A stretch of DNA of 41,288 bases, taken from NCBI GenBank assembly GCA_964201515.1, contig CAXNGL010000002.1, positions 1 to 41,288 of the forward strand. The letters run 5' to 3'. Made by a program: the position numbers and the translations under genes. The notes beneath the pieces were generated by a model. It had not been told where the DNA came from and ran no database searches. It saw only the letters and a list, made by a program, of their open reading frames with translations. The first letter of the stretch is position 1, and every line of letters begins with the position of its first letter. This DNA is from Burkholderiales bacterium. Its GTDB lineage: Bacteria > Pseudomonadota > Gammaproteobacteria > Burkholderiales > SG8-39. This document shows, in pieces, positions 206 through 40,636 of the stretch.

Positions 206-228
206 TCATTGATCATCCATAACCCGAC

Positions 229-2336: not shown

Positions 2337-2385
2337 CATTCAGCGCAAGGCCTGGTACTTCCTGCCAGCGCACTTTCCCCACGGC

Positions 2386-11715: not shown

Positions 11716-11824
11716 GGCGCGGCCGGCCCCCGAATGACCGCCAACGGCCATGGCGTATTTTTTTTAATATGATCAATTTCTGATCGAGTACTTTTACTAT
11801 CGGATATGCGCATTGAGAATGTGA

Positions 11825-15719: not shown

Positions 15720-16440
15720 TCTCGACCGTACCCGAGACCGTCACCGTCACCTGGCTCATGCCGCCCTCGAACTGCGGTGCCACCACCTCCGCCGACGCCG
15801 CGGCCAGCGCGCGCGCCATGATGGGGCGCGGCGCGACGAAGCCGCCGGTGTTGATGGCGAGGCGCTTGAGCCGATAGCTCTTTCCCGCCAGCGCCTGGCG
15901 CACGATGTCGGCGCGGGCACGAAATGCCCCGATGGCTTCGGTAACGAGCTCGTTCTCGACCGCCTTGCGCGCCTCGGTGGAGATGCTGAACTGCATGGAG
16001 GCCAGTTGCAGACTCGCCTGCAGGCGCCCCACCAGCGCGGGCGCAGCCTGGAAATCGCGGCTCTCGATGCGGATTTCGGCGCGCCCGCGCCAGCCGGTGA
16101 GTTTCTGCGCGCGGTCGTACACCGGATAGGTCTGGTTGTTGCCGGAGCGCGCCCGCACCGCCTTCACCTCGCCGGCGAGCCTGATGGCTTCGTTCAAGGC
16201 GCGGTTGAGTGTGGTGGCCACCTGCGCGGCGCTGGCGTCGCTGGCCTCGGCGTAGAGCGTGGCGGTCAACGTGTCGTTGGCGACTTCGCGCTGGGCCTCG
16301 GCCTGCAGCTCAACGGTGTTGTAGCGCTCCGGCGCGGGTTGAGCCTGCGCTGACACGGGCGATCCGATGAGAAGCGACAGGCAGCATACGGCTGCAGGCA
16401 ATACGCGTTGCAACAGGCAAAATTTCAATCTGATCTCCAT
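15712..16440 (-). CDS. SIMPL / DUF541 (YggE-like) periplasmic protein
   Basis: ATG 16440 gives MEIRLKFCLLQRVLPAAVCCLSLLIGSPVSAQA, a signal peptide. The body (VELQAEAQREVANDTLTATLYAE...QTYPVYD...MQFSIS...) fits the SIMPL-domain pattern as I remember it. Confidence 0.7.
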   Translation of the reverse strand: MEIRLKFCLLQRVLPAAVCCLSLLIGSPVSAQAQPAPERYNTVELQAEAQREVANDTLTATLYAEASDASAAQVATTLNRALNEAIRLAGEVKAVRARSGNNQTYPVYDRAQKLTGWRGRAEIRIESRDFQAAPALVGRLQASLQLASMQFSISTEARKAVENELVTEAIGAFRARADIVRQALAGKSYRLKRLAINTGGFVAPRPIMARALAAASAEVVAPQFEGGMSQVTVTVSGTVEIE

Positions 16441-16444
16441 CGTG

Positions 16445-16909
16445 TCAACTGCTGACGCGCGCAAATTCGAACGTCAGGGTCGCCGGGCGCTTGGCGGTAT
16501 TGGTCCATACCACGCAGTAGTCCTGCGCCACCTTGGGCTGGAAGGTGCCGGAGCCGATGGCAACCTTGTCCTTCTTGACGGGATAGAGCGTTTCCTTGCC
16601 CTCGACATACTGGATGTTGAAATCCACCGCGCCCTCGGCGCGATACCAGTAGCGCAGCTTCTGCTGCAGCGACAGGCTGAAGCATTCCTTGTAGGCACCG
16701 GAGCTGACCAGCGTGGTGGTCACCGATTTCACCGCGCTGCGCGACGGGGAACTGCCTTGCGCCGACGCCTGAACTGGCGTGAGGGACGCCAGCGCGGCGA
16801 TAACCAGCATTGCCGTGCTCGCGCAAGCAATGCCATAACGCGCTGTGCCCACCCGGGCTGATTGGGCCGATGCGGAATTGCGAGCGATCAATACCCGACG
16901 ATTGCGCAT
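16445..16909 (-). CDS. small secreted hypothetical protein (two-Cys beta-sandwich-like)
   Basis: 154 aa with an N-terminal signal-like segment AMLVIAALASLTPVQASA. The mature part is beta-rich with two Cys (KECFSL...DYCVVW). The stop lies 4 nt from the SIMPL start. Confidence 0.55.
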   Translation of the reverse strand: MRNRRVLIARNSASAQSARVGTARYGIACASTAMLVIAALASLTPVQASAQGSSPSRSAVKSVTTTLVSSGAYKECFSLSLQQKLRYWYRAEGAVDFNIQYVEGKETLYPVKKDKVAIGSGTFQPKVAQDYCVVWTNTAKRPATLTFEFARVSS

Positions 16910-16929
16910 GCGGTTCCCTGGATGTCCGA

Positions 16930-17334
16930 CTACTTCTTTGGCGTACGCTGGGCTTCGGCGCGGCGAAGTTGGTCGAAGGCCGCGGCTTCCCGCGCGTGGA
17001 CCTTCCTTGTTTCTGCAGCCTTGGCACGCGCTGCCTCAGCCTGCTTCCTGGCCTGATCGCGACGCGTACGCGCTGTCTCGGCCTCCTTTTGCAACGCCGT
17101 CAGCGCCACCTCGGCCTCGCGCAGGCTGCGCTCTGATTGCTGTACCTGCGCATCGGCGGCCTCGGCCTGCCGGCGTGCATATTCGACCCGCTGCTGGGCG
17201 TCTTCGAGCGGATCGGTGCGGTGGGAGCGCTCTTCGACCGGGGCTGCGGCCTGAGTGGGCATTCCCGTAGCGCACGCCAGCACCAACAAGACGGTACAAA
17301 GAAGGTGAAGACCAGGGGAAAACGGCAACGGCAT
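16930..17334 (-). CDS. secreted or lipo- coiled-coil protein (Ala/Glu/Arg/Gln-rich)
   Basis: The probable start at ATG 17334 gives MPLPFSPGLHLLCTVLLVLACATG, a signal peptide with a possible lipobox. The rest is a charged helical repeat region (RRQAEAADAQVQQSERSLREAEVALTALQKEAETARTRRDQARKQAEAARAKAAE). The frame stays open upstream through five more ATGs (see the repeat at 17352-17399). Confidence 0.5.
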   Translation of the reverse strand: MPLPFSPGLHLLCTVLLVLACATGMPTQAAAPVEERSHRTDPLEDAQQRVEYARRQAEAADAQVQQSERSLREAEVALTALQKEAETARTRRDQARKQAEAARAKAAETRKVHAREAAAFDQLRRAEAQRTPKK

Positions 17335-17399: not shown

Positions 17400-17476
17400 A
17401 TTCCCAGATTCTACACCGGGGCTTTCAGCGCCCCTGCGCGGTCACGCGCGCAGCGTGACGAAGTGCCGATGCAATG

Positions 17477-17507
17477 AAAAAGCCCCGCGGGGTTGCCGCG
17501 GGGCTTT
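17477..17507 (-). terminator. rho-independent terminator of the giant gene
   Basis: The minus-strand RNA reads GCCCCGCGG-CAACC-CCGCGGGGC followed by UUUUU (plus-strand aaaaa at 17477-17481). It lies about 25 nt after the stop at 17530. Confidence 0.7.
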
Positions 17508-17529: not shown

Positions 17530-20500
17530 CTAGCGCTTGAACACCGCCACACCTGTGACCGTCTGGCCCACCGCGGTGATATTGCTGCCAGTGAAGGTCG
17601 ACGAGTTGAAGGTGTAAGCCATCCCCGCGCCCTGACCCGTGGTGCCAACGAAGCCGCCGGCAACTTTTCCGGACAGTGTTCCCGAGCAGGCACCGCCGGT
17701 ATTCGTGCAGGCCAGCCCGAGGGCGCCAGTACCTTTTTCGCGACTCACCTCGAAATACACGCCCTTCTGGATGGCAACCCCGGTAGCGGAGGCGGCCCAG
17801 GTATTGCCGTTCACGGTCGCATTCACGCCGACATCCACGGTCTTGGCAGTGAAGTTCGCCGCCAACGTGGCCGAGTTGAGCGTGCCCACGAAATTGCCGG
17901 AGGACGCGTTATCGGTCGGATTGGTGCCACCGACGAAACTGTAGGTCGCCGTCCCGCTCACCGGCAGCACCGTCGGCCCGGATTGCACGCCCGAGTAGAG
18001 GAAGTGACGGTTGTTGCCGGCGCTGAACTCAGCGCCGGCATTCAGGACGGTGCCGGTAATGCGGTCCACAACCACAAAGTTGCCGCCGGTGTAACGGCCC
18101 CAGCTGGCACCGGTCGTGGCGTCACGACCGAAATCGGCAATTGTCGCAGCGCTCGCTACGGCTGGCACGGCAAATCCAGCGGCCGTGGTGAGCGCCGAGG
18201 TACTGTAAGACACGTATGTTGGTATTTCATTCGTATAGCAGTTCGAACCGGCCGTCGAGCAACTGCTGCCCGACACCACCCTGCTGACCGCGTCAAAAGC
18301 GACCGGCTGGTTCGAACTGTTGTACTTGACGCTGCCCGGATCGATCACCTCGCCGTTTATCCCGACAAGGCTTGAGGTGTTGATGGCGAACGCGCGGTCG
18401 GAGATTGAGGTTGGAGCTGCCCGGACGATGCCGGTCGTCGCATCGAATCCCGCCGTGGTGCCTGAGGTGCCGAGGCGAATCTGGTAGGGCTGCGTTGCGA
18501 GTGCGGAGGTACCGCCGTAGCCGCCGTTACCTCCCGCATTGGCGGTGAAGGTCGGGCTGCCGAACGCCACCACGCCATTGACGTGCTCGTGGCTACCGCT
18601 GTTGTTCGCGTCACTGGCGCCAAAGGCATACGAGAGAAACGCACCGCTCGCGCTGGTGCCACTGCCGCCGCTCCCGCTCAAGGCGCCGCCAATCGATCCA
18701 AACGCAGACTGTGCCGTGGAAGTGGCGCCCGAGGTCGTGACGGTCACCGTCAGGCTGCGATCAGCCAGCGGGTTCGTCCCACTCGTATTCGACGCATTGA
18801 ACTGGCCGTCACCATTGAGAGCGATGTTATTTGCCGTGGCATTCCAAGTCCTTGCCATGCTGCCGGCACCGGCATTGGCCGGCACCTGGATGTTCGACAG
18901 ACCGATGCTAACCGATTGCTTGTCGAAGTTGATGCCAAAGGTTGCTGTACCGCCACCCAGCGCCGTGCCACTGGTAATCCCGTTCTGGTCTGTGGCCGGG
19001 GACGCGGCAATCATCGGATAAGAGGCAGTTCCCTGCAGGATGCTGCTCACATAGAAGGGCCACAGCTCCGGTCCGCGGATCCACTGCAAGGCGCCGACAA
19101 TGCTCTTGGCCAGCGTCGTGGGGCTGCTACTCGTCGTGCCGAACGATCCCAGTCCAGCGAGGTTTCCGTCGATGGTCAGCGGCGTTCCGGTTCCCGCCTG
19201 CCCTTGCGAGACAGTCTGCCCAGCGTAGCGGCCGAATACGATGCCGTTGCCAGTCGTCACCGGTGTTGCTGACACAGGCGTCGGCGTGCCATTGATTTTA
19301 ATGAAGTTAGGCGTCGTGTTGTTGGGGTCGTACTCGGTCACCGAAAGAAAGTTGCCCTGCGCGTCAACAGTACCCGTTCCCTGGGGCAGGGTATTCACCA
19401 CAAAGTTGTCATTGGTTCCAAAAGTGTAGGAAAGCGCCGTCGGCGTTGTGGTGGATGTTCCCGGCCAGGCGAAGAATGCAGTCGAGTACACCACGCCGGG
19501 CGTGGCTGCTGGTGCTGCCTCCGGCCCCTTGTTGAAGGCGACCATGCCGTTGATGAAGTTGTTGTTGATGGTGGTGGATGCCTGCGTGCCGGACGGAATT
19601 CCCCCCGTCGCACCGACAGCCATTCCGCTGGTGTAGTAGTTATTGAAGGTGTACCGGAAAAATGCGCCGTTCGCGGAATTGTCGCCTGCCAGCCCCCCCT
19701 GAATGCGACCGCCATACCCGTAAGTATTGGTAGAACCGACCGGGGGCGGCGCACAATTTGTTCCGACGCACGATACTTGCAACCCTCCGCCACCCACACC
19801 GGTTGCAACATTGAATCCAAAGTCGCTGCTGGTGATGGGCACGTTTGCCGCCCGTGCGCGCAAGACAAGCTGGCTGTTCATGGTGATGCTGACTTCAGGG
19901 TTGACTTGCTGCGTGGCAAAGTTAACGTCCAGCCGGGCGCGGTTCAACGACCCGACATTGCCAAGCGAATCCACAGGCGCTGTGCCGAAGGTCGGCAAAT
20001 AGTGGAACACGCCTACGATTGGTATCGCCGAAGGTACTTCACGGGTGTTCCAGATCACGCTGTTGCTACCCAGATTGGTCAACACATCCATGAAGGTGCC
20101 CGTCACCGTCGAGGCGTTCACCGCCCCGCCCAAGTAGCGTCCGAAGGAGATGCCGTTGGTCGTGTCGGCGTAGGTTTCAGTCAGGGTGGCCGTCGCCGCC
20201 TTGTCTCCATTGGCATTGAAGCCGACACCAAGGCTGGGCACCGTACCGCCGCCCATGGAGACAATGGCAGTGGTGCTGGCATTTGACGGTGTGCTGTTCA
20301 AGCACTGCGTAACCACACCGGTGCACTGCGTGGCCGCCCCTGCACTGCCGTTGAATATATTCCACGTGTCACCATTGACGCGAACAAGATTGCCGCTGGC
20401 ATCACGAATCAGCGCGGTATTTGCCACGGCGGTTCTGCCCGTCGATTCCAGGAAAACCTCGCCGTTCGATATGGATACCGGATATATGATTGAACTGCGG

Positions 20501-23500
20501 AAGCTGCCCGTGCTACCGACTGCAGTCGGATTACCACCGACAGTTGGCGCAGTCGCGCTCATTGCCGCGACGCCCTGGATATTGTCGCCATTGGGCGTAT
20601 TCGCCGGCACGGCGCCCAGGTTGGGTATGAAGTTGTAGCCCAGCGCACCGCCGTAGGCATTGGCAGCGCCAAAGCCGCCGGTGATGCCGCCATTCCACGT
20701 TCCCGCCGTGCTGCCACCAGCCGGGTTCGGAACCACGCAACCCGCCCCCGTACAAGTGATCGTTGGGGCCAAGGCACCTGAGAGCGAGTCTGAGAAAAAA
20801 CCATTATTGTTGATCGGTACGCTAGGCGTCTGCGCATTCAGCGTCAGCACTCGCGCCCCAGTGAACGACAGATTCACGTTCGCGCTCGCGGTCTGCGCGG
20901 AAAAATCTGCCGCAATCGACGCCGAATTGAGCGTGCCGACGTTGCCAAAGGAGTCGCTCGGTTTGGTTGCGGAGACCAATGCATAGTTGGTCGTGCCGAT
21001 GAGCTTCTGGACCAAATTCAGTGCCGGATACTGGAACACCATCCAGCTGGCACTCCGCGACCCGAGCGCAATGGACTCAAGCAGCGTATTGCCGCCCGAC
21101 GTGCCAGTGTCAGAGTAGATGTCCAGGGTACCGCCCTGCCAGCGACCGATGTAGATGCTGTTGTCGGCTGCCTTGAAGGTTTCATTGGCGGTGCCCCCGG
21201 CAAATTTCACGTAGCGGCTCGGAAACGGGGTGGTCTTGGTGTCGGTGGTGGTGTCGGTGAAGTTGAAGCCCTTGGCATCGATTTCTTCGGCGACGCGAAC
21301 ATTGACCAGGTTCTTGGCGCCGTCAAGCACAAGGTTGCTGCCGGCAACAGTATTCTTGTTGTTCACGAACACGTTTTCCACACCGGCACCGCTGGTCTTC
21401 CTGCCCGCGATGAAGAAGCCAAAACCATTGGGCGGCGCGGCCACTGCCGGGTTGCTGTATTGCGCAATCGGCGCCTGGGCGGCAACGATGGCCGCCTGTG
21501 TGTTGACCGCCGTGGTGTCCGTGGCGGCCGATGCAGCATAGGACTGCGCATCATTGGCGTAACCAAAAACGGTTTGGGAAGCCGTGGTGTCGGTCGAAAC
21601 GCCGGCACCCGCCTTGGCGGCCTGCGCGGAACCAATTCCGGAGATGATGGGGGCGGCGGCGGCAAGCGCATTCACCGCGATGGTCTGCTGCTGCTGGGCG
21701 ATGGTCAGTTGCGCCTGCGCGCTGGTGAAGTTGCCGGCGTCCTGGAATACCTTGGCCTGCGCTGCTGCAGTGGCCGCCGCCGTGGCAGCGTTTTGCGCCA
21801 TGGTGAGCAGGCCCTGCGCCGGGGTTGTCGTCGGGACGCCCAGCGCGGTCGCCAACGGCGTGTACGTTGTCAGCGCGGTATTCGCCGCGGTCATGGCGGA
21901 GTTGACTTGCGACAGCGTGCTGCCGCTCACTAGCTTGGCGACGCCCAGCGAGTTCGCCAGCGTGGTGATGGTGCTGGCCGCGGATTGCACCGCCGTGTTG
22001 GCGTTAATCACATTGTTCTTGGCCGGGGTTGCCAGCGTGGCATCGGCGAAAGCGCCGTTGGCGGCGAATGCAGCATTGGCCGCATTGGTCGTTGCCAGCG
22101 CGCTGGCCGCCGTCGTGTTCGGGGTAGCGGTATTGATCGTCAGCGCATTGGCGCTGTTGAATGCCGTTTGCGCCGCCGTCACCGCGGTCGAGGCTGCGGT
22201 GACTTCTGTCGGCAGATTCAACGATCCAAGTCCGCCCGAATTCGTCACCAGCGTGCTGAGGGAGGCTGCTGCAGCGGCAGCTGCCGCAGCGGCAGTGTCC
22301 GCCTGGCTGGCAAATGCGCCCTGGGAAATGGGCGCCGCGGTCCCTGTGGAGGTCACCACGGTGTTCGACGTCGTATTGACGGTCAATCCGGATGAGCTTG
22401 TCAGTACGATCGGCGTGGTGGTTGCCGTGGTGGTGCTGGTTGACGATGAAGAAGACGAACTGCCGCCACCGGCGGAGACCGGGGTGACCGTGACGACGGA
22501 AGTCGTGGCCATGGGGGAGGTGACCGACGACTGCGTTGCTGTCTGGGATGCGGTGGCAACCTGGGTCGGGCTGTCGACGACGGAGGCTCGGAGCGGTTCG
22601 GCCTGTTGCTGCGCTGGTGCTGCAGCCTGCTGCTGGGCAGGCGCGGCGGCCGTGGCCGTCGATTCGCCAGCCTGTGCGGGCGCAGCACCCTGTTGCTGTT
22701 GCTGCTGGCCTTGCGCTCCCCCTTGTTGCCCGCCTTGTTGCCCGCCTTGCTGCCCGCCCGCCCCCCCTGCTGGCGGGGCCGCTGGCTTCGACCCCGGCGG
22801 TGGTGTCGCCCGGACCAAGTTGGTCCCGACGCCTGGAGGAAGGATGCTTGGGGCCTGCCCAAGCCGCACGACACCGATCTGGTTCGGGCTAACGGGGAGA
22901 GGAACGCCGACGCCGACGCCCCCGACTCGTTGTTGGATCGTGGACTGACCCACGTTGTTCTTGACCAACGTGGTGTTGGCGAAACTCGACAGTCCGCCAC
23001 CCGATCCGCCACCCGGAGGACCCGCCTGCGCCAGCAGCATCGGCACCAGCGTTTCCTGCTGCCCGATGAACAGCGGCGCGACATCCAGCTGCAATCCGGC
23101 CTGCGCCAGCATTGCCGGCATGGGCGCCAGCGAAACCGTGCCGGGGGGAATGTAGATAATCTCGTGATCGGTGCCCCGAATGCCCACCGTCGCCGTTGGG
23201 GTGTTGATCTTGAAATTTCCCTTGTTGATGCGTCCAAGGGCGCCGGTAATGCTGCGGAATCCGCCGCGCACCAGCGACAACAGGCCGCGTTCGCTGCCGT
23301 CTTCCTTGCCCGCCCACTTGTACTCATCGAACTTCATCTGCGTGTCCGGACGCACCGCGAGGTACCCCCCGTCCACCATCTTGATCTGCGCCGAACCGCT
23401 GCCGACGATGAGCGTGTCACCCTCGTTCACCTGGTCGCCCTTGGCAATGACGCGCGTGCCCTGCGCCGTAGTCAATCGCACATCGCCAATGGCGAATTGC

Positions 23501-23580
23501 ACGGTGCCGATCTCCGCTCGCGCAGACACTGCCGCCAATGCGAATACGGCCACGGATAGAATTCTCAGGAATGTCGACAT
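17530..23580 (-). CDS. giant secreted protein: FecR-like N-domain, low-complexity spacer, four TbpB-like handle+barrel modules
   Basis: ATG 23580 is preceded by GGAG. The signal peptide MSTFLRILSVAVFALAAVSARA/EIG has no lipobox Cys. A FecR-type segment follows (GTVQFAIGDVRL...GDTLIVGSGSAQIKMVDGGYLAVRPDTQMKF...TPTATVGIRGTDHEI). Then comes a Q/G/A/S/T-rich region of about 530 aa. Four repeats each end in a pattern of the form G-T-A-x-Y...G-x-L-N-x-A-x-L-x-x-N-F...G-G-F-x-G...G-V-x-A-F. Confidence 0.85.
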   Translation of the reverse strand: MSTFLRILSVAVFALAAVSARAEIGTVQFAIGDVRLTTAQGTRVIAKGDQVNEGDTLIVGSGSAQIKMVDGGYLAVRPDTQMKFDEYKWAGKEDGSERGLLSLVRGGFRSITGALGRINKGNFKINTPTATVGIRGTDHEIIYIPPGTVSLAPMPAMLAQAGLQLDVAPLFIGQQETLVPMLLAQAGPPGGGSGGGLSSFANTTLVKNNVGQSTIQQRVGGVGVGVPLPVSPNQIGVVRLGQAPSILPPGVGTNLVRATPPPGSKPAAPPAGGAGGQQGGQQGGQQGGAQGQQQQQQGAAPAQAGESTATAAAPAQQQAAAPAQQQAEPLRASVVDSPTQVATASQTATQSSVTSPMATTSVVTVTPVSAGGGSSSSSSSTSTTTATTTPIVLTSSSGLTVNTTSNTVVTSTGTAAPISQGAFASQADTAAAAAAAAAASLSTLVTNSGGLGSLNLPTEVTAASTAVTAAQTAFNSANALTINTATPNTTAASALATTNAANAAFAANGAFADATLATPAKNNVINANTAVQSAASTITTLANSLGVAKLVSGSTLSQVNSAMTAANTALTTYTPLATALGVPTTTPAQGLLTMAQNAATAAATAAAQAKVFQDAGNFTSAQAQLTIAQQQQTIAVNALAAAAPIISGIGSAQAAKAGAGVSTDTTASQTVFGYANDAQSYAASAATDTTAVNTQAAIVAAQAPIAQYSNPAVAAPPNGFGFFIAGRKTSGAGVENVFVNNKNTVAGSNLVLDGAKNLVNVRVAEEIDAKGFNFTDTTTDTKTTPFPSRYVKFAGGTANETFKAADNSIYIGRWQGGTLDIYSDTGTSGGNTLLESIALGSRSASWMVFQYPALNLVQKLIGTTNYALVSATKPSDSFGNVGTLNSASIAADFSAQTASANVNLSFTGARVLTLNAQTPSVPINNNGFFSDSLSGALAPTITCTGAGCVVPNPAGGSTAGTWNGGITGGFGAANAYGGALGYNFIPNLGAVPANTPNGDNIQGVAAMSATAPTVGGNPTAVGSTGSFRSSIIYPVSISNGEVFLESTGRTAVANTALIRDASGNLVRVNGDTWNIFNGSAGAATQCTGVVTQCLNSTPSNASTTAIVSMGGGTVPSLGVGFNANGDKAATATLTETYADTTNGISFGRYLGGAVNASTVTGTFMDVLTNLGSNSVIWNTREVPSAIPIVGVFHYLPTFGTAPVDSLGNVGSLNRARLDVNFATQQVNPEVSITMNSQLVLRARAANVPITSSDFGFNVATGVGGGGLQVSCVGTNCAPPPVGSTNTYGYGGRIQGGLAGDNSANGAFFRYTFNNYYTSGMAVGATGGIPSGTQASTTINNNFINGMVAFNKGPEAAPAATPGVVYSTAFFAWPGTSTTTPTALSYTFGTNDNFVVNTLPQGTGTVDAQGNFLSVTEYDPNNTTPNFIKINGTPTPVSATPVTTGNGIVFGRYAGQTVSQGQAGTGTPLTIDGNLAGLGSFGTTSSSPTTLAKSIVGALQWIRGPELWPFYVSSILQGTASYPMIAASPATDQNGITSGTALGGGTATFGINFDKQSVSIGLSNIQVPANAGAGSMARTWNATANNIALNGDGQFNASNTSGTNPLADRSLTVTVTTSGATSTAQSAFGSIGGALSGSGGSGTSASGAFLSYAFGASDANNSGSHEHVNGVVAFGSPTFTANAGGNGGYGGTSALATQPYQIRLGTSGTTAGFDATTGIVRAAPTSISDRAFAINTSSLVGINGEVIDPGSVKYNSSNQPVAFDAVSRVVSGSSCSTAGSNCYTNEIPTYVSYSTSALTTAAGFAVPAVASAATIADFGRDATTGASWGRYTGGNFVVVDRITGTVLNAGAEFSAGNNRHFLYSGVQSGPTVLPVSGTATYSFVGGTNPTDNASSGNFVGTLNSATLAANFTAKTVDVGVNATVNGNTWAASATGVAIQKGVYFEVSREKGTGALGLACTNTGGACSGTLSGKVAGGFVGTTGQGAGMAYTFNSSTFTGSNITAVGQTVTGVAVFKR
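22721..22756. repeat. 12-bp in-frame tandem repeat x3 inside the giant gene (encodes GGQQ x3)
   Basis: Units ccttgttgcccg / ccttgttgcccg / ccttgctgcccg, followed by further CAG/CAA-rich sequence encoding poly-Q. Confidence 0.8.
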
Positions 23581-23730
23581 GGTGTCTCCGGCTTTCAAGG
23601 CGATACCCCGATCGGGGAATGGGTTTCTTTTTTCAGGCTAGACATTTCGCACCCTGGGGTCAATCGGTGCCATGCGCGGGAGCGGTCATAAGTCACGGCT
23701 CCGGATGATGGCGACCAAACGACTCGATGC

Positions 23731-25080
23731 CTACAAACTGAGGTCGCGGCGCAGGGTGAGCGAGATCTCGTTGCGCTCATAGGCGTAGATCGGGATGCTC
23801 GAGATGTTCTTCGAGTACGTCCACTGCGGCTTGAGCGTCCAGTCCTTCTCGAAGCGCCAATTCACCCCCAGCGAGAGGTCGCGCTGGTCGTCGCGCCGGA
23901 AGGCCAGGAACGCCGTGTTCTGCCGCTCGTAATGCGCGCGCTGGTTGGTCGCCACCGCAAACAGGTCCATGTCCTCGCGCAGCACCAGCTGCCCGCCAAT
24001 GCGGAATCCCTCCGAGCGCTTGGCGCCGTCGGCGCGGCCCGACGGGTCGCGCTCCTTGCCGAACAGGTAGTTGGCCAGCAGCACCGCCTGCCCGTCGCCC
24101 AGCACCCGCAGGTAGCCCAGGCCAGTGGTCGATGAATTGAAGTTGTTCACCATGTTGGCTGCGCTGGTAAAGCGGTTGCGCGAGAACTGGCTGAACGCAC
24201 TCAACTGGTTGGCCGGGTCGATGGTGTACTTCCACTCGCCCGACATGCCCTCGGAGCGCCGGCTCAGGTCATTGTCCAGCGTGTAGCGACCGCTTTGCCC
24301 GGCGATCTTCAACTGGTTGGTCGCCTCGCCCACAGACACCCCGCCGCGCATGTCCACGCTGCCGTTGTCGAACGTATCCTGGGTGAAGTTCATGCGCTGG
24401 CGAAAGTCACCGCCCACAAAGGCCCCCAGGCCCGGCGTGAACTGGTAGGTATATTCCGCGCCCGCACCCACCGCCTTGAAGCTGTCGCCGCGCTTCAGGT
24501 TGGTCGGGTTCAGCGTGAAGGTCAGTCCGCCCAGCGCCGGCACCGCGATGTTGGCCTGCGAGCCCGAGTTGTTCACGTTGGTATCGTTGCCGATCTGCAA
24601 CTCGACATAGCCGCGCAGCGTGCGCTTCTTGGCGCGCTCGATCTTGTCGATGGCATCCAGATAGGTCGTGATCACCGTCTGCGCCTGCTGTGGCGGGTTT
24701 TGTTCCCTTACGGCAAGGAATTCCGTCTTGGCCCGCTCGGCATCACCCAGCTGGAAGTAGGCGCGCGCCATGTCCAGGCGGGCACCGGCAAAGTTCGGGT
24801 TCACTGCCAGCACGCGCTCAAAAGCGAGCGTCGCCTTGTCGGACTTCCCGGAATCCAGCGCCGCCACTCCCAGCGCATAGTCGAACTCCACGTTGCCGGC
24901 GAACTTGTCCTCGAACGGCAGCAGGTAGTCGTAGGCTTGTGCAGGCTTGCCCTGGTTCAACAGCTCCTGGGCGCGCGCAACTTCAGCTTGCTGGGCCTGC
25001 GCAACATGGCCTGCCCCTAGCAATAGAAGAAGCGATACCGTCACTACTGCGCGAAAAATATTCACCCGCGTCGAATTCAT
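23731..25080 (-). CDS. TPR + beta-barrel outer-membrane protein, Slam/DUF560-like (putative type XI secretion translocator)
   Basis: ATG 25080 is preceded by GGAG. The signal peptide is MNSTRVNIFRAVVTVSLLLLLGAGHVAQA. About 150 aa of TPR-like repeats follow (AQELLNQGKPAQAYDYLL..., ATLAFERVLAVNPNFAGARLDMARAYFQLGDAERAKTEFLAV). The remaining roughly 290 aa show the alternating amphipathic strands typical of a barrel (YVELQIGNDTNVNN..., WRFEKDWTLKPQWTYS). The size and architecture match Slam as I recall it, and the gene sits directly upstream of a TbpB-barrel-like cargo gene. Confidence 0.6.
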   Translation of the reverse strand: MNSTRVNIFRAVVTVSLLLLLGAGHVAQAQQAEVARAQELLNQGKPAQAYDYLLPFEDKFAGNVEFDYALGVAALDSGKSDKATLAFERVLAVNPNFAGARLDMARAYFQLGDAERAKTEFLAVREQNPPQQAQTVITTYLDAIDKIERAKKRTLRGYVELQIGNDTNVNNSGSQANIAVPALGGLTFTLNPTNLKRGDSFKAVGAGAEYTYQFTPGLGAFVGGDFRQRMNFTQDTFDNGSVDMRGGVSVGEATNQLKIAGQSGRYTLDNDLSRRSEGMSGEWKYTIDPANQLSAFSQFSRNRFTSAANMVNNFNSSTTGLGYLRVLGDGQAVLLANYLFGKERDPSGRADGAKRSEGFRIGGQLVLREDMDLFAVATNQRAHYERQNTAFLAFRRDDQRDLSLGVNWRFEKDWTLKPQWTYSKNISSIPIYAYERNEISLTLRRDLSL

Positions 25081-25387
25081 GCAGTGCTCCATCCTCTGAA
25101 TTGTCGTTCTCGTTATTAGTCGAACCACCCAAGCATGGCAATCATGGTAGCTCCAGCATTCATTCTTGCCCATTCATTGCCTCCTTGCCGAGGAAGGCTG
25201 CACTTGAGTGTACGCCCCCCCCCTCCCGACACTCAATCAAAGCAGTCGCGTTATTCTCTATAATTTTGATGCTCGCAGTCTATGTTAAGTTTTGTTGTTT
25301 ATGTTGAATTTTAAAAAAGACCGGCTTCACGCCGCTACAATGATTCGCGCGGCCAGTTGGCCGGCCGCGAACAACTTCGCAAATTCC

Positions 25388-26266
25388 ATGAACAGCGGGT
25401 TATCCACAAGCAAGATCGTATTCATCGGTGCAGGTCGTCTCGCGACTGGCCTCTCGCTGGCGCTGCACGCCAACGGCATCGCTGTGCAGGCCATCACCAG
25501 CCGCAACCGTGACAAGTCACAGGCATTGGCATCCCGAATCCCGGGTTGCAGCACGATCGGAATGCAGGCAGCAGTCGATCTGGGCGATCTTGTGTTCATC
25601 GCAGTACCGGATGACGCCATTGCATCGGTGGCAGCGCAGCTGCGCTGGCGTCCGGGTCAATCTGCGGTGCATTGCAGCGGCGCCACGGAAATTGCGGTCC
25701 TGTCTCCCGCCCTCGAAGCCGGTGCTGCGATCGGCGGGTTCCACCCACTGCAGACATTCACCGACCCTGAAGTCGCGCTTGCGACACTTCCCGGATGCAC
25801 CGTTGCGCTGGAGGCGGAGCCTGAGCTGTTCTCGACACTGGAGCACCTGGCCAAGGCGATCGGCTGCCGCCCATTCGCCTTGCCCAAGGGCGCTCGCGCC
25901 CGCTATCACGCCACCGGCAGCTACGGCGCCCAGTTCATTAACGCGCTGCTGCTCGAGGCCAGCGCGGTGTGGGAATCCTTCGGCAAGGATCGGGAGGCCG
26001 CCGTGCGCGCCCTGCTGCCGCTGCTCAAAGGCACCATCGCCGCCATTGAGCACGATGGCCTGGCGCACGGGCTTGCCGGGCCGGTGTCGCGCGGCGACGC
26101 CGGCACCGTGCGCCGCCAGCTGGAGGGCATCGCGCAGGTGGGCGATGCGCAGGTCGCACTGTTTCGCCAACTAACGCGGCTGACGCTGCCACTGGCCATC
26201 GAACGCGGCTCACTTAGCGCGGTGCAGATTGAAGCGTTGCGGACGCTGCTTGAGGATAAGGACTAA
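25388..26266 (+). CDS. Rossmann-fold NAD(P) oxidoreductase (DUF2520-type)
   Basis: The ATG 25388 start gives MNSGLSTSKIVFIGAGRLATGLSLAL, a GxGxxA dinucleotide fold at the N-terminus. The C-terminal helical domain contains GPVSRGD. Earlier in-frame starts (25292, 25340) are possible. Confidence 0.6.
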   Translation: MNSGLSTSKIVFIGAGRLATGLSLALHANGIAVQAITSRNRDKSQALASRIPGCSTIGMQAAVDLGDLVFIAVPDDAIASVAAQLRWRPGQSAVHCSGATEIAVLSPALEAGAAIGGFHPLQTFTDPEVALATLPGCTVALEAEPELFSTLEHLAKAIGCRPFALPKGARARYHATGSYGAQFINALLLEASAVWESFGKDREAAVRALLPLLKGTIAAIEHDGLAHGLAGPVSRGDAGTVRRQLEGIAQVGDAQVALFRQLTRLTLPLAIERGSLSAVQIEALRTLLEDKD

Positions 26267-27602
26267 AGTCTTTTGGCAATTGAGGGCGCCGTGACAAGAC
26301 CACGCCCTTCAAACTCCCCCGCTTCAGGGGCCATTTCGGTAGTTCTGCTATGGCCGGTTGGAACGATTGCAATATTCCTTCTGCAACCGCAAACAGATCA
26401 ACCCTGCCCCACGCAATCTTCTTCGTCACCGCCGCGCCCTGCTCGTGGTTGTTCATGTAGCCACGCTGCCATGTCGTCGCAGGGTTTCCCGCAATCACAA
26501 TGCCAATCGACTCCGGCGTGTAGAAACAGGGCACCAGCCGGTCGGGGTCCTTCGAAGTCCCATAGGCCGCCGGGACGATGCCCTTTTCCAGCTGCGACGC
26601 AAGATCGATGTTCACGAAGCGACCGCGGAATTCGACGTCGCGGGCCAGAATCTTCGCCCGCTCGTAGAGGTAGTTGCGGATGTCGTTCTTGCTCCAGCCT
26701 TTGTCGGCGGCCAGCTTGGCGATCTGCGGGTTCATGATGATCAACGGGTCCCAGTGGGCAAACGCCACCGCCGTGTGCACCCAGTAGCCAAGAATGGCCT
26801 TGCCGAACACGTCGGCCATCGGGTCGAGGTAGCCCAGCAGGTCGTTGCCCTCCGAGCCGTGGCCGGCCATCGGCGCACTGGCGCCGATCATGCTTTGCAC
26901 CGTCACGCCGCTCTCGCCCTCCTTCAGTCCCCGCTCCATGCCGTAGGTGGGCCAGCCGATGGAGCGAACGAAATCCTCGGCTTCGGCGATGACGACATTG
27001 AATGGATTGCCGATGCCGGCGCGGTCCGTCTCGCCCGGCGGAATGCGCAGGCCGGCGATGTTGCGCGTGTACAAACGAAGGAAGCGGCCGATGGCGGTAT
27101 TGGCGCGACGCCCCGCGCGCATGACGCCGGTGCCGAAGTTGAAGTCGAGCGCCTGGGTCACCGGCCCGCTGATGACAATGAGCGGCTCCCATCCGGGCGT
27201 GCTGCCATGGTCCTCGATGCGGAATTCCGGATCGGCGACGGCATCGACCAGCGCCAGCAGCACCGGCATGTATTCGGGCAGGCAGCCCGACATCACGCCA
27301 TTCACCGCCACATTCCACACCGTGGCCTCGCGCCGCTCCGGCAACAGCACGCCGATGACTTCCTCCGGCTTGCGCCGGGTGTGCTGCATGAAGGCATCGA
27401 TACGCTCGAGCGTGGGCGGTATGACCGGCAGGCCTTCAGTCCACTGCTGATCGTAGAAATGCGCGTTGACTTCGTCAATGGATCCACGGAACACGACCTC
27501 GCGCGGCTTGTGCTCGCCGCCCCTGTGCGCGGGCGAGATCTTCACGTTGCCCAGCTCAGAGATGATCTGGTCGACGATGTCGTTGGCCACGCGCACAGAC
27601 AT
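26214..27602 (-). CDS. uncharacterised family protein, paralog A (462 aa)
   Basis: ATG 27602 (MSVRVANDIV...). It shares W-T-E/D-G-L-P-x-x-P-T-x-E-R-hydrophobic-D-x-F, AVNxVMxGCxPE and a C-terminal IxIhhAGxP block with the ORF at 28249..29277. It is transcribed divergently from the TGA-containing gene. Its 3' end overlaps the convergent oxidoreductase gene by 53 nt. Confidence 0.75.
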   Translation of the reverse strand: MSVRVANDIVDQIISELGNVKISPAHRGGEHKPREVVFRGSIDEVNAHFYDQQWTEGLPVIPPTLERIDAFMQHTRRKPEEVIGVLLPERREATVWNVAVNGVMSGCLPEYMPVLLALVDAVADPEFRIEDHGSTPGWEPLIVISGPVTQALDFNFGTGVMRAGRRANTAIGRFLRLYTRNIAGLRIPPGETDRAGIGNPFNVVIAEAEDFVRSIGWPTYGMERGLKEGESGVTVQSMIGASAPMAGHGSEGNDLLGYLDPMADVFGKAILGYWVHTAVAFAHWDPLIIMNPQIAKLAADKGWSKNDIRNYLYERAKILARDVEFRGRFVNIDLASQLEKGIVPAAYGTSKDPDRLVPCFYTPESIGIVIAGNPATTWQRGYMNNHEQGAAVTKKIAWGRVDLFAVAEGILQSFQPAIAELPKWPLKRGSLKGVVLSRRPQLPKDFSPYPQAASATLQSAPR

Positions 27603-27673
27603 TCGACAGGCATTCGTTGACGCGCCATCCCTGGCATGCAAACATCAATCCCATTCGGATGACCGGAGGTTGC

Positions 27674-40356: not shown

Positions 40357-40403
40357 TTCTTTCCTAGCGTTCGTTGCAACCGACGTGAATCCGGTTTGGC
40401 AGA

Positions 40404-40559
40404 GATCCTTGCTTGTATGCGAATGGCTTCATCATCCGTGTACAAGCAAGGATCCGCACGGACGGCCTCTTCGTCCGTGCAGGTTTTTCACAACACCTGC
40501 GCGCTGCGCGCGCCAACCCCGTTTTGTACGAATACACACCATTCGTACAAAACGGGGTT
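40404..40559. other. cluster of three strong hairpins in the urtD-urtE spacer
   Basis: Hairpin 1: 14-bp stem 40404-40417 / 40441-40454. Hairpin 2: 9-bp GC stem 40456-40464 / 40472-40480, followed on the plus strand by aggttttt. Hairpin 3: perfect 19-bp stem 40515-40533 / 40541-40559 with loop acacacc. Confidence 0.8.
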
Positions 40560-40636
40560 TCTGGTATCCGTTGCGGAACCACTAAAGTGGATTTTGGCAA
40601 GGGCCTACCCTCATTCTGTTGTCTCTCGAAGACAGC

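What the first reader, a model, noticed from the sequence alone, without database searches (positions are those of the whole stretch)
17530..25080. Putative Slam / type XI secretion pair with an atypical giant non-lipoprotein cargo
The upstream gene (25080..23731) encodes a signal peptide, about 150 aa of TPR repeats and a beta-barrel of about 290 aa. That matches the size and architecture of surface lipoprotein assembly modifiers (Slam, DUF560).

Directly downstream, after a 150-bp spacer, is a 2016-aa protein with its own terminator. Its C-terminal modules carry the sequence logic of the TbpB/fHbp/HphA 8-stranded barrel that known Slam substrates share: G-T-A-x-Y, then a G...L-N-x-A-x-L-x-x-N-F strand, then G-G-F-x-G and a terminal G-V-A-V-F-K-R.

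This cargo differs from described cargos in four ways:
- It has no lipobox; the signal peptide ends AVSARA/EIG.
- It has an N-terminal FecR-type domain.
- It has a low-complexity linker of about 530 aa.
- It has four barrel modules instead of one or two.

The pair is consistent with an undescribed class of Slam-dependent surface or secreted protein in what looks like a free-living beta-proteobacterium.
Basis: partly seen in the sequence, partly recalled or inferred. Interest (0 to 1): 0.8.

Follow-up and report, generated by a model that had tools for sequence, protein, structure and literature searches.

The report
Slam-type secretion pair, giant multi-barrel cargo
A two-gene operon in a freshwater Rhodoferax-like bacterium encodes a Slam (type XI secretion) outer-membrane protein and a 2016-residue partner, and this pairing recurs in well over 70 betaproteobacterial species but appears in none of the type XI papers I could search.

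Summary
The upstream gene (25080..23731, minus strand) encodes a signal peptide, TPR repeats and a DUF560/SlipAM barrel that scores above Pfam's cut-off. After a 150-nt spacer comes a 2016-aa secreted, non-lipidated protein followed by a strong terminator.

This cargo has four parts:
- a FecR-type N-domain;
- a low-complexity linker of about 465 aa;
- four handle-plus-barrel lobes;
- a ...GVAVFKR C-terminus.

The barrels do not match Pfam TbpB_B_D. AlphaFold models (pLDDT about 90) do resemble fHbp and NHBA, and the module profile's best PDB hit is a TbpB C-lobe barrel. All these matches are sub-threshold.

Synteny is the strongest evidence. In 71 of 77 informative loci from other species, a FecR-headed gene starts directly after the OMP gene.

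- The invariant partner is the N-domain, not the barrels. Barrel number ranges from 0 to 5 in these genomes and up to 8 in metagenomes, and 13 of 59 partners have none.
- The N-domain is significantly similar to the periplasmic retention "plug" of type I adhesins (MpIBP RIN, LapA).

I read this as a new variant of type XI secretion. Secretion itself is untested.

The parts
25260..25288 (-). Weak sigma-70-like promoter candidate (TTAACA-17-AATTAT) in the AT-rich divergent intergenic region upstream of the OMP gene
   Evidence: Consensus scan. One site was found against 1.5 expected by chance, so this is only a candidate. Sequence.
23731..25080 (-). Slam-family (type XI secretion) outer-membrane protein gene, 449 aa
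   Evidence: ORF and translation. PF04575 SlipAM scores 31.6 bits against a cut-off of 22. The homolog search found 1142 relatives; most of the 120 listed carry PF04575, and some are named 'surface lipoprotein assembly modifier' or 'DUF560 domain-containing protein' by NCBI.
24994..25080 (-). OMP signal peptide (residues 1-29, cleavage after AQA)
   Evidence: Read directly from the sequence. The position and the mature N-terminus QQAEV are conserved in homologs.
24607..24984 (-). Periplasmic TPR domain of the OMP (residues 33-158)
   Evidence: Pfam TPR_19, TPR_16 and TPR_2 match. TPR_Slam (PF24575) reaches only 22.9 bits against a cut-off of 35.2.
23746..24591 (-). DUF560/SlipAM beta-barrel (residues 164-445)
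   Evidence: The Pfam alignment covers profile positions 10-286 of 288.
23581..23730 (-). 150-nt intergenic spacer with the ribosome-binding site (GGAG) of the cargo gene
   Evidence: Sequence. No terminator and no unusual fold. No credible Rfam match. Orthologous loci have spacers of only about 10-70 nt.
17530..23580 (-). Cargo gene, 2016 aa
   Evidence: 45 homologs of 789-2296 aa were found.
23515..23580 (-). Cargo signal peptide (residues 1-22, A-R-A/E; signal peptidase I type, no lipobox)
   Evidence: Read directly from the sequence. Homologs likewise lack a lipobox Cys.
22816..23514 (-). FecR-type / retention-module-like N-domain (residues 23-255, with a window-specific insertion at about 150-203)
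   Evidence: Pfam FecR scores 28.6 bits. The alignment A5 has 40 invariant columns. The family profile's only PDB hit is 5IX9 (MpIBP RIN), E = 1.3e-4. NCBIfam retention_LapA gives E = 4.5e-4 for the window and 2.9e-9 for an ortholog. This is the most conserved part of the protein, at 54% identity.
21421..22815 (-). Low-complexity linker (residues 256-720): Gly/Gln/Pro-rich, then Ser/Thr-rich, then Ala/Thr/Asn/Gln-rich
   Evidence: Composition and entropy. It is the least conserved and most gap-rich region among homologs. Only short DNA tandem repeats are present.
20554..21420 (-). Lobe 1: handle (residues 721-846) plus barrel (847-1009)
   Evidence: Self-BLAST. Barrel HMM, E = 1.4e-23.
19591..20553 (-). 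Lobe 2: handle (residues 1010-1174) plus barrel (1175-1330)
   Evidence: E = 4e-23.
18556..19590 (-). Lobe 3: handle (residues 1331-1501) plus barrel (1502-1675), the most divergent lobe
   Evidence: E = 6e-10; conservation.
17533..18555 (-). Lobe 4: handle (residues 1676-1860) plus C-terminal barrel (1861-2016), ending GVAVFKR
   Evidence: AlphaFold models reach pLDDT 90.9 for residues 1737-2016 and 90.1 for residues 1861-2016. The most probable Foldseek matches are fHbp and the NHBA C-domain.
17474..17507 (-). Rho-independent terminator after the cargo gene
   Evidence: 12-bp stem, dG -25.3 kcal/mol, z = -4.45, followed by a U-tract.

Best explanation
This is a two-gene type XI secretion (Slam-family) operon.

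The first gene encodes an outer-membrane protein with a periplasmic TPR domain and a DUF560 barrel. The second encodes its dedicated partner. That protein is made with an ordinary cleavable signal peptide, so it is not a lipoprotein.

Proposed sequence of events:
1. The Sec system exports the partner to the periplasm.
2. The Slam-type OMP handles it there.
3. Its four TbpB-like handle-plus-barrel lobes reach the cell surface. The barrels serve as the conserved scaffold and export determinant. The more variable handles serve as ligand-binding faces.
4. The strongly conserved FecR-type N-domain, joined to the lobes by the roughly 465-residue flexible linker, is the part that co-occurs invariantly with the OMP. 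It most likely contacts the OMP.

What is shown: the domain anatomy, OMP family membership, the fold of the last lobe, and operon conservation.

What is inferred: translocation by the OMP, surface exposure, the role of each domain and the ligand. My best guess at the overall role is a large adhesin or ligand-capture protein of groundwater and freshwater Betaproteobacteria.
For: OMP identity:
- PF04575 scores above the gathering cut-off over nearly the whole profile, and TPRs are present.
- Most of the 120 listed homologs carry PF04575, and some are named Slam or DUF560 by NCBI.

Linkage:
- All 8 loci reached from cargo homologs have an orthologous OMP gene (42-48% identity where DNA was held) immediately upstream on the same strand. 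The flanking genes are otherwise unrelated.
- Starting from the OMP instead, 201 species genomes encode a relative. Of the 77 retrieved loci with at least 600 nt downstream, 71 have a FecR-headed ORF starting directly after the OMP gene.

Cargo barrels:
- Four repeats are present.
- The models are confident. The last lobe is all-beta. The barrel-only model has eight long strands and one short one.
- The highest-probability Foldseek hits are the Slam substrates fHbp (probability 0.96-0.97) and the NHBA C-domain (probability 1.00 and 0.99; TM 0.47-0.58).
- The best hit of the module profile in the whole PDB is the TbpB C-lobe barrel, aligned in register.
- Six family members carry an additional barrel of one conserved type in tandem with the family modules. 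In the two scanned (P0039, P0040) it passes PF01298, and the P0039 copy hits TbpB and hemophilin in the PDB.

Conservation pattern: barrels are 43-46% identical to homologs (34% for the third) and handles 24-33%, as in TbpB-like proteins.

Precedent for non-lipidated Slam cargo: hemophilins and the soluble cargos of the 2025 survey.
Against: - No experiment exists for any member of this OMP clade.
- The window cargo has no PF01298 or other barrel-family match.
- No structural or profile match to TbpB, fHbp or NHBA reaches conventional significance. Foldseek E is at least 0.02, the PDB profile E is 0.1, and hhalign probability is 9%. PsbO and avidin barrels appear in the same hit lists.
- 13 of 59 complete orthologous partners have no barrel at all. 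The C-terminal barrel therefore cannot be the universal recognition element for this OMP clade.
- The OMP is a divergent Slam. Its SlipAM score is only 31.6 bits and TPR_Slam is below threshold.
- No TonB-dependent receptor lies nearby, unlike the classical nutrient-uptake Slam loci.
Confidence: 0.68

Rival explanations
1. Retention-anchor variant, which refines rather than excludes the best explanation. The N-domain folds in the periplasm and cannot pass the OMP. The flexible linker threads the Slam pore and the lobes sit outside. The protein would then be tethered through its own secretion pore, as LapA and MpIBP are tethered in their TolC-like pores, and this would replace the lipid anchor of classical Slam cargo.
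For: - The N-domain profile's only PDB hit is MpIBP RIN (5IX9), E = 1.3e-4. RIN is the periplasmic plug of a giant adhesin and served as the template for the LapA retention module.
- NCBIfam retention_LapA matches orthologs at E = 2.9e-9 and 4.5e-8, and the window protein at 4.5e-4.
- The N-domain is the most conserved part of the protein and the invariant partner of the OMP.
- A Gly-rich low-complexity linker follows it, as in LapA.
Against: - The match covers only the first 65 or so residues of the retention module and stays below NCBI's cut-off of 50 bits.
- The window protein on its own gives only E = 0.23 against 5IX9.
- The same region also matches FecR and the Leptospira proteins named surface adhesin Lsa33 and lipoprotein LipL45, and a surface location of such a domain would not fit a periplasmic plug.
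- No LapG or LapD genes and no type I secretion genes are in the window.
- The direction of translocation through Slam is not known.
Confidence: 0.25
2. The FecR-headed protein is not cargo but a periplasmic partner, plug or regulator of the OMP. The true substrate would be encoded elsewhere, and the barrel lobes would stay in the periplasm or be irrelevant to export.
For: - Barrel-less partners of 226-306 aa occur in 13 species. They have a conserved N-domain and a conserved C-terminal hydrophobic-x-Phe ending, at the same position after the OMP gene.
- FecR-type domains are typically periplasmic. This rests on general knowledge of FecR/PupR anti-sigma factors.
- Marine cluster 3 type XI OMPs also co-occur with a non-barrel partner (DUF1194) of unclear role.
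Against: - 46 of 59 complete partners carry 1-5 lobes of the kind known only from Slam-exported proteins.
- A 2016-residue, low-charge, repeat-rich protein with a long disordered stalk looks like a surface protein.
- No other candidate cargo is conserved at these loci.
Confidence: 0.1
3. The adjacency reflects some other shared process, such as exopolysaccharide or biofilm-matrix export through a TPR-bearing barrel of the PgaA or BcsC kind, and not protein secretion by the OMP.
For: - Some PgaA homologs were once assigned to PF04575.
- There are weak NCBIfam TPR-region hits to BcsC and PrsT, and a weak barrel-region hit to EpsL.
Against: - The OMP is 449 aa with a short TPR domain, which is the Slam architecture.
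- The PF04575 match covers the whole barrel.
- The NCBIfam hits are far below their cut-offs and, apart from EpsL, confined to the TPRs.
- No glycosyltransferase or polysaccharide genes occur in the window or in the 8 loci reached from cargo homologs.
Confidence: 0.04

Closest known systems
Neisserial Slam1/Slam2 with TbpB, LbpB, fHbp, HpuA, NHBA (type XI secretion, SSN cluster 1)
   Same: - The OMP has a signal peptide, periplasmic TPRs and a DUF560 barrel.
- The cargo gene is adjacent.
- The cargo is built from handle plus eight-stranded barrel lobes.
- The C-terminal strand motif is similar: G-V-A-V-F-K-R here, against a TbpB C-terminus ending ...GAVFGAK.
   Different: - The cargo has no lipobox.
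- It is 2016 aa, with four lobes instead of one or two.
- The barrels are not recognised by PF01298.
- It adds a FecR-type N-domain and a linker of about 465 residues.
- No TonB-dependent receptor is nearby.
- The host is an environmental betaproteobacterium.
- The OMP is divergent (TPR_Slam below cut-off) and probably belongs to SSN cluster 2. That assignment is inferred from taxon matches in Table S1 of the 2021 paper.
HsmA-HphA (Slam-dependent hemophilin hemophores)
   Same: The cargo is cleaved by signal peptidase I and is not lipidated. [quoted passage not shown]
   Different: - Hemophilins are single-lobe proteins (the hemophilin chain matched here is 234 residues).
- They bind heme.
- They are encoded with a TonB-dependent receptor.
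- None of this applies here.
Multi-TbpBBD 'Sphingomonas' and 'Psychrobacter' surface proteins and 'disordered N-terminus' cargos of the 2025 T11SS cargo survey (PMC12282271)
   Same: Several barrel domains occur in one cargo, with long disordered or repeat regions N-terminal to the handle and barrel.
   Different: - Those belong to cluster 1 OMPs and carry Pfam-recognisable barrels.
- They are mostly lipoproteins.
- FecR is not mentioned anywhere in that paper.
LapA / MpIBP-type type I secretion adhesins with an N-terminal retention module (NF033682; PDB 5IX9)
   Same: These are giant modular surface proteins. The first 65 or so residues of the N-domain show significant sequence similarity, and a Gly-rich flexible segment follows the domain.
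   Different: - Here there is a Sec signal peptide.
- There are no RTX repeats and no C-terminal type I signal.
- No ABC transporter, fusion protein, TolC-like, LapG or LapD genes are in the window.
- The adjacent OMP is DUF560.
- The match is below the family cut-off and covers half of the module.
FecR/PupR anti-sigma factors and Leptospira FecR-domain proteins (Lsa33, LipL45)
   Same: PF04773 matches (28.6 bits), and there are NCBIfam hits to LipL45 and Lsa33 over about 115 residues.
   Different: - There is no cytoplasmic anti-sigma domain and no transmembrane helix.
- No ECF sigma factor or TonB-dependent transducer gene was found in the window.
- The NCBIfam scores are far below those families' cut-offs.
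Marine cluster 3 T11SS OMPs co-occurring with DUF1194 proteins
   Same: This is a non-cluster-1 Slam clade whose most constant neighbour is not the TbpB-type barrel.
   Different: The partner domain is different: an alpha/beta vWA-like fold there, against the all-beta FecR-type domain plus optional barrels here.

Membership tests
Slam / type XI secretion OMP (DUF560, PF04575) | N-terminal Sec signal peptide | tested here: met
   MNSTRVNIFRAVVTVSLLLLLGAGHVAQA/QQ. Homologs have equivalent signal peptides and a conserved mature N-terminus.
Slam / type XI secretion OMP (DUF560, PF04575) | Periplasmic N-terminal domain with tetratricopeptide repeats | tested here: met
   TPR_19, TPR_16 and TPR_2 pass their cut-offs over residues 68-134, and TPR matches as a whole span 33-158. 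The specialised TPR_Slam model (PF24575) is not met, at 22.9 bits against 35.2.
Slam / type XI secretion OMP (DUF560, PF04575) | DUF560/SlipAM barrel profile match above the curated cut-off | tested here: met
   31.6 bits against 22, covering residues 164-445 and profile positions 10-286 of 288. Most of the 120 listed homologs carry PF04575.
Slam / type XI secretion OMP (DUF560, PF04575) | 14-stranded barrel (16 strands would indicate PgaA) | tested here: inconclusive
A crude amphipathic-alternation scan on 116 homologs found only 10 segments. Near-full-length alignment to the Pfam profile suggests the Slam topology.
Slam / type XI secretion OMP (DUF560, PF04575) | Encoded next to its substrate gene | tested here: met
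   8 of 8 loci starting from cargo homologs, and 71 of 77 loci starting from the OMP.
Slam / type XI secretion OMP (DUF560, PF04575) | Necessary and sufficient for surface display or secretion of the neighbouring protein | not testable with these tools
   This needs co-expression and deletion experiments.
Type XI secretion cargo (TbpB-like fold) | Sec signal peptide (type I or type II) | tested here: met
   Type I site A-R-A/E after residue 22, with no Cys.
Type XI secretion cargo (TbpB-like fold) | [quoted passage not shown] | tested here: met
   This rests on a model only. The AlphaFold model of residues 1861-2016 has pLDDT 90.1, with eight long strands and one short one. The most probable Foldseek hits are the NHBA C-domain, at probability 1.00 and 0.99 and TM 0.47-0.58. 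E-values are weak, about 0.03.
Type XI secretion cargo (TbpB-like fold) | Handle domain of beta-strands preceding the barrel | tested here: met
   This rests on a model only. The model of residues 1737-2016 has pLDDT 90.9 and six strands N-terminal to the barrel. The top hits are two-domain fHbp, at probability 0.96-0.97.
Type XI secretion cargo (TbpB-like fold) | Sequence match to TbpB_B_D (PF01298) or the fHbp C-domain family | tested here: not met
   - No match in the window cargo at E up to 1, nor in the last 280 residues of 25 family members.
- 1 of 32 short family members matches.
- The module profile's best PDB hit is TbpB, but at E = 0.1.
- hhalign against the family's extra barrels (Pfam-confirmed in two of the six) gives P = 0.0035 and probability 9%.
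Type XI secretion cargo (TbpB-like fold) | Lipobox (classical surface lipoprotein cargo only; hemophilins lack it) | tested here: not met
   No Cys in or near the signal peptide. This is not disqualifying.
FecR family (PF04773) | Profile match above the curated cut-off | tested here: met
   28.6 bits against 24 for residues 1-260, but 23.3 bits on the full-length protein. Orthologs score 32.6-39.2 bits.
FecR family (PF04773) | Anti-sigma architecture and context (cytoplasmic domain, membrane helix, ECF sigma, TonB-dependent transducer) | tested here: not met
   The domain follows a cleavable signal peptide directly. No sigma factor or transducer gene was found in the window.
LapA-type retention module (NF033682; MpIBP RIN, PDB 5IX9) | Profile match above the curated cut-off over the whole module | tested here: not met
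   The window protein scores 20.4 bits (E = 4.5e-4). The best ortholog scores 37.3 bits (E = 2.9e-9). The cut-off is 50, and only profile positions 3-68 of 145 are covered.
LapA-type retention module (NF033682; MpIBP RIN, PDB 5IX9) | Similarity to the solved RIN domain | tested here: inconclusive
   The family profile hits 5IX9 alone in the whole PDB, E = 1.3e-4 over 66 residues. The window sequence alone gives E = 0.23. The N-domain was not modelled.
LapA-type retention module (NF033682; MpIBP RIN, PDB 5IX9) | Type I secretion context (ABC transporter, fusion protein, TolC-like OMP, RTX C-terminus, LapG/LapD) | tested here: not met
   None of these was found in the 41-kb window, and the cargo has no RTX match.

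The most novel reading that the evidence does not exclude
In this Slam clade the conserved OMP-interacting element is the N-terminal FecR/retention-module-like domain, not the C-terminal barrel. The domain would fold in the periplasm and lock the protein into its own secretion pore, with the flexible linker threading the barrel and 0 to 8 TbpB-like lobes displayed outside. That would be a Sec-dependent counterpart of LapA/MpIBP anchoring and a new, lipid-free way to tether type XI cargo. The barrel-less 226-306-aa versions would then be plug-only or minimal substrates. They would show that type XI OMPs can recognise something other than the eight-stranded barrel.
Probability: 0.25. Interest if true: 0.8.

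Novelty: new variant of a known kind. Interest (0 to 1): 0.66.

Why it matters
According to the 2025 cargo survey, type XI secretion has been verified experimentally only for seven OMPs, all from the animal-associated cluster 1. The published cargo surveys cover clusters 1 and 3 only. The water- and soil-associated clusters have no characterised member.

This locus supplies a clean and highly conserved OMP-partner pair for an environmental clade:
- 201 species genomes encode a relative of the OMP.
- The clade is dominated by Gallionella, Sideroxydans and Ferrigenium, with other groundwater Betaproteobacteria.
- The OMP probably belongs to SSN cluster 2.

Nature has also provided a deletion series of 0 to 8 barrel lobes behind an invariant N-domain. 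This makes an open question directly testable: what does a Slam actually recognise, and how is a non-lipidated cargo kept on the cell?

If the N-domain works as a retention plug, it would link the anchoring logic of type I adhesins to type XI secretion. The proteins may also be major, so far unannotated surface structures of iron-oxidising bacteria.

Tried and rejected
- Direct Pfam and NCBIfam scans of the cargo for TbpB_B_D gave nothing.
- Sequence and profile searches of the last 280 residues, and of residues 700-2016, against the PDB gave nothing.
- I first took the PF01298 hits in homologs P0039 and P0040 as direct proof for the family modules. I rejected this because the hit lies in an extra, separate penultimate barrel that the module HMM does not detect.
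- hhalign of the module profile against those extra barrels gave P = 0.0035 but probability only 9%. It is suggestive and not decisive.
- The third homolog search, using the P0039 extra barrel as query, returned nothing and was wasted.
- The search for related loci with the C-terminal alignment failed for lack of a conserved stretch. The OMP alignment was used instead.
- BLAST self-comparison with the whole protein returned only the identity hit. Sliding segments were needed.
- The strand count of the OMP barrel from hydrophobic alternation was too crude to use.
- Rfam over the region gave only chance hits, mir-542 and Leu leader, both far below gathering score.
- The consensus terminator scan missed the real terminator. 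Folding confirmed it.
- I looked for a TonB-dependent receptor, TonB, an ECF sigma factor, LapG/LapD, type I secretion genes and polysaccharide genes in the window. None was found.
- Literature searches for FecR together with Slam, and for the Sideroxydans locus tags, found no prior description.

Full report
**1. What is in the sequence**

On the minus strand an ORF runs from ATG 25080 to the stop at 23731-23733 and encodes 449 aa.
- Its N-terminus is a typical signal peptide...GHVAQA/QQAE. Homologs share the mature N-terminus QQAEVARAQ, which fixes the start at 25080 and not at the in-frame ATG 25173.
- Pfam finds TPR repeats between residues 33 and 158.
- Pfam also finds PF04575 (SlipAM/DUF560) over residues 164-445. 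This covers positions 10-286 of the 288-position profile, at 31.6 bits against a cut-off of 22.
- The specialised TPR_Slam model stays below its cut-off (22.9 against 35.2), so this is a divergent Slam.

Exactly 150 nt downstream, with GGAG 5 nt before the ATG, a second ORF runs from 23580 to 17530 and encodes 2016 aa. A 12-bp GC hairpin with a U-tract follows it, at dG -25.3 kcal/mol and z = -4.45.

The flanking genes are unrelated housekeeping genes: a divergent DUF2520 gene, SIMPL, MFS transporters, isocitrate dehydrogenase, GroEL, the urease operon and a two-component system. The 41-kb window contains no TonB-dependent receptor, TonB, ECF sigma factor, type I secretion gene or LapG.

A Rhodoferax sp. 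MAG contig is essentially identical over this pair.

**2. Anatomy of the large protein**

- The signal peptide ends A-R-A/E and has no lipobox Cys.
- Residues 23 to about 255 form a FecR-type domain. It scores 28.6 bits when scanned alone and 23.3 bits in the full-length protein, against a cut-off of 24. The window protein carries an insertion of about 54 residues in it.
- Low-complexity sequence runs from the end of that domain to about residue 720, in three zones: Gly/Gln/Ala/Pro-rich, Ser/Thr-rich and Ala/Thr/Asn/Gln-rich.
- The rest consists of four repeats, detected by segment-wise BLAST at E from 4e-17 to 2e-5.
- An HMM built from family C-termini places barrels at about 847-1009, 1175-1330, 1502-1675 and 1861-2016.

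**3. Are the modules TbpB-like?**

By direct sequence search they are not. There is no PF01298 match in the window protein, nor in the last module of 25 family members. The last 280 residues give no PDB hit even as a profile.

Several independent weak signals nevertheless point the same way:
- A profile of 43 diverse modules has as its best hit in the whole PDB the C-lobe barrel of a TbpB (4qq1), aligned in register, but at E = 0.1.
- An AlphaFold model of residues 1737-2016 (pLDDT 90.9) is all-beta. Its top Foldseek hits are fHbp, at probability 0.96-0.97, E about 0.03 and TM 0.33.
- The barrel-only model (pLDDT 90.1) has eight long strands and one short one. Its highest-probability hits are the NHBA C-domain, at probability 1.00 and 0.99 and TM 0.47-0.58.
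- fHbp and NHBA are listed with TbpB, LbpB and HpuA as Neisserial surface lipoproteins that share this barrel architecture, and the barrel is described as common to Slam-dependent lipoproteins.
- Six family members carry an additional barrel of one conserved type in tandem with the family modules. In the two scanned it passes PF01298 (35.5 and 37.8 bits against 26). The P0039 copy hits TbpB and hemophilin in the PDB.

I first took those PF01298 hits as direct proof. They lie in a separate domain that the module HMM does not detect, so they count only as association. hhalign between the two barrel types gives P = 0.0035 and probability 9%. PsbO and avidin barrels also appear in the Foldseek lists.

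My conclusion is that the fold assignment, handle plus eight-stranded barrel of the TbpB/fHbp kind, is well supported at the level of models. Homology is likely but unproven.

**4. Is the pairing real?**

This is the strongest evidence.
- Starting from eight cargo homologs on contigs of 18-828 kb, every locus has an OMP gene immediately upstream on the same strand. Identity to the window OMP is 42-48% where DNA was held. The surrounding genes differ from locus to locus.
- Starting from the OMP, 201 species genomes in the GTDB set encode a relative. The best 80 loci are dominated by Gallionella, Sideroxydans, Ferrigenium straubiae (a complete genome), Georgfuchsia, Burkholderiales and groundwater Betaproteobacteria MAGs.
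- Of 77 loci with at least 600 nt downstream of the OMP gene, 71 have an ORF with the FecR-type N-domain starting directly after it. One further locus (L009) was missed only because of how ORF starts were counted.
- The module profile finds 1353 representative proteins at E up to 1e-3 among 1.84 billion. These carry up to 8 modules and reach 3351 aa.

**5.

Among the 59 complete downstream ORFs the number of barrel modules is distributed as follows:

| Barrel modules | ORFs |
|---|---|
| 0 | 13 |
| 1 | 3 |
| 2 | 9 |
| 3 | 19 |
| 4 | 11 |
| 5 | 4 |

The 13 barrel-less proteins are 226-306 aa. They consist of a signal peptide, the full N-domain and a short low-complexity tail that ends in hydrophobic-x-Phe. 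They sit at the same position after the OMP gene. In L076 the next ORF is a 457-aa one on the opposite strand, the same layout and size as the purB-like gene that follows the giant cargo in related loci. Truncation by assembly is therefore unlikely.

The N-domain is also the most conserved part of the protein:

| Region | Identity to homologs |
|---|---|
| N-domain, first part | 54% |
| Barrels 1, 2, 4 | 43-46% |
| Barrel 3 | 34% |
| Handles | 24-33% |
| Linker | 19% |

The N-domain alignment has 40 invariant columns. The invariant partner of this Slam clade is therefore the N-domain, and the lobes are a variable payload.

**6. What the N-domain resembles**

- A profile of 12 N-domains has exactly one PDB hit: 5IX9, E = 1.3e-4 over 66 residues.
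- A barrel-less ortholog alone gives E = 7.9e-4. The window protein alone gives 0.23.
- 5IX9 is the NMR structure of RIN, the N-terminal periplasmic domain proposed to plug the TolC-like pore and anchor the 1.5-MDa adhesin MpIBP (PMC5550230). It was used as the template for the LapA retention module (bioRxiv 10.1101/198937).
- NCBIfam's retention_LapA model matches orthologs at E = 2.9e-9 and 4.5e-8, and the window protein at 4.5e-4. It covers only positions 3-68 of 145 and stays below the cut-off of 50 bits.
- The same region also matches the Leptospira proteins named surface adhesin Lsa33 and lipoprotein LipL45.

This does not make the protein a member of the LapA family. It has a Sec signal peptide, no RTX repeats and no type I secretion genes nearby. 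It does suggest how the protein could be held on the cell without a lipid anchor.

**7. Mechanism**

Shown:
- a Slam-family OMP and a Sec-exported, non-lipidated partner form a conserved operon;
- the partner has an N-domain, a linker and four lobes.

Inferred:
- the OMP moves the lobes across the outer membrane, as Slams do for TbpB-type cargo and hemophilins;
- the barrels are scaffold and export determinant, and the variable handles bind a ligand;
- the N-domain contacts the OMP.

I put 0.68 on this overall reading. Within it I put about 0.25 on the specific idea that the N-domain stays periplasmic as a plug with the linker threading the pore.

The main rival, at 0.1, is that the FecR-headed protein is a periplasmic partner or regulator and not cargo. 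The barrel-less versions fit this idea. The prevalence of export-type lobes speaks against it. A polysaccharide-export role for the OMP is unlikely (0.04).

**8. Comparison with what is known**

- Slams are defined as a TPR domain plus a 14-stranded DUF560 barrel. About half of 353 Slams examined in 2017 had an adjacent lipoprotein (PMC5449769).
- Hemophilins showed that signal-peptidase-I cargo exists.
- The 2021 network defined 10 clusters, of which only cluster 1 has characterised members (PMC8406197).
- The 2025 survey analysed cargo for clusters 1 and 3 only. It found about ten architectures, including soluble and multi-barrel ones. It never mentions FecR or cluster 2 (PMC12282271).
- In the 2021 Table S1 the Sideroxydans lithotrophicus ES-1 and Gallionellales DUF560 proteins are in cluster 2. 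The window OMP probably belongs there too. This is inferred from taxonomy and not verified by sequence.
- No paper in the library combines Slam with a FecR-type cargo.
- Public annotation calls these cargos 'FecR domain-containing', 'beta strand repeat-containing' or hypothetical.

**9. Verdict**

- lack of a lipobox and the presence of several barrels are not new in themselves;
- the PF01298 test fails;
- the FecR-type N-domain, not the barrel, is the constant partner of the OMP.

I classify it as a new variant of a known kind of system. It is of clear interest to the type XI secretion field, and entirely computational so far.

Noticed in passing
L076:11291-12115, L084:11323-12231 and 11 further loci (L051, L067, L068, L070, L072, L074, L077, L081, L083, L085, L088): In 13 Gallionellaceae and related genomes the gene after the Slam gene has no barrel lobes detected. 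In 12 of them it encodes only 226-306 aa: signal peptide, N-domain and a short tail ending in hydrophobic-x-Phe. L072 is 849 aa, and separate downstream ORFs there carry single barrel modules, so that gene may be split.
   Followed up: partly
P0039 residues 1697-1828, P0040 1679-1806; also P0200, P0203, P0167, P0224: A subset of family members carries one extra barrel of a single conserved type as the penultimate domain, distinct from the family's own barrel modules. In P0039 and P0040 it passes PF01298. The P0039 copy hits TbpB and hemophilin in the PDB.
   Followed up: partly
window 25173-25081 (minus strand): An in-frame ATG 93 nt upstream of the OMP start is preceded by a strong AAGGAGG. 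It would add a Cys/His-rich 31-residue extension (MGKNECWSYHDCHAW...EHC). Homologs start at the signal peptide, so it is probably not used. A G-run (GGGAGGGGGGGGCG) lies in the same leader.
   Followed up: partly
window cargo residues ~150-203 (nt ~22972-23133): The window protein has an insertion of about 54 residues (…VSLAPMPAMLAQAGLQLDVAPLFIGQQETLVPMLLAQAGPPGGGSGGG…) inside the otherwise highly conserved N-domain. It is absent from the 11 orthologs in alignment A5 (one has a short Pro-rich stretch there) and is gapped in 83% of 16 other homologs.
   Followed up: no
window cargo barrels 1, 2 and 4: Each of these barrels contains one short Cys pair with 4-6 residues between the Cys (CTGAGC, CVGTNC, CTNTGGAC) in the same loop, also visible in the family consensus (L.V.C.G.C). 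Barrel 3 has none. This may be a conserved disulfide loop.
   Followed up: no
window 17530-23580: The cargo gene has lower third-position GC (0.74) than the OMP gene and five of six other genes checked (0.82-0.88); DUF2520 has 0.74. Overall GC dips to about 0.60 in the lobe region. This could reflect weaker codon bias or a different history.
   Followed up: no
L027:6738-8261, L035:8519-9358, L080:7580-9184, L087:55-1782, L065:1434-2486; L051:9421-10326, L039:13730-14635: Some loci carry a second FecR-headed gene, either upstream of the OMP gene or further downstream. The system is therefore sometimes duplicated or rearranged.
   Followed up: no
L018, L029, L043, L044, L078 (record titles): A few OMP-cargo loci sit in MAGs labelled Rhodospirillaceae, Enterobacteriaceae or Desulfobacterales. 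Given the otherwise betaproteobacterial distribution, these may be binning or labelling errors, or horizontal transfers.
   Followed up: no
window 26214-27641 (-), 28147-29277 (+), 1470-2336 (+), 16425-17027 (-), 40389-41288 (+): Several sizeable ORFs near the pair have no Pfam match at E up to 1e-3. Some may not be genes, because ORFs overlap heavily at this GC content.
   Followed up: partly
window 223-3570 and 10324-15719: There are at least five MFS-transporter matches in two clusters, including overlapping alternative ORFs at 11825-15719 whose true gene boundaries I did not resolve.
   Followed up: no
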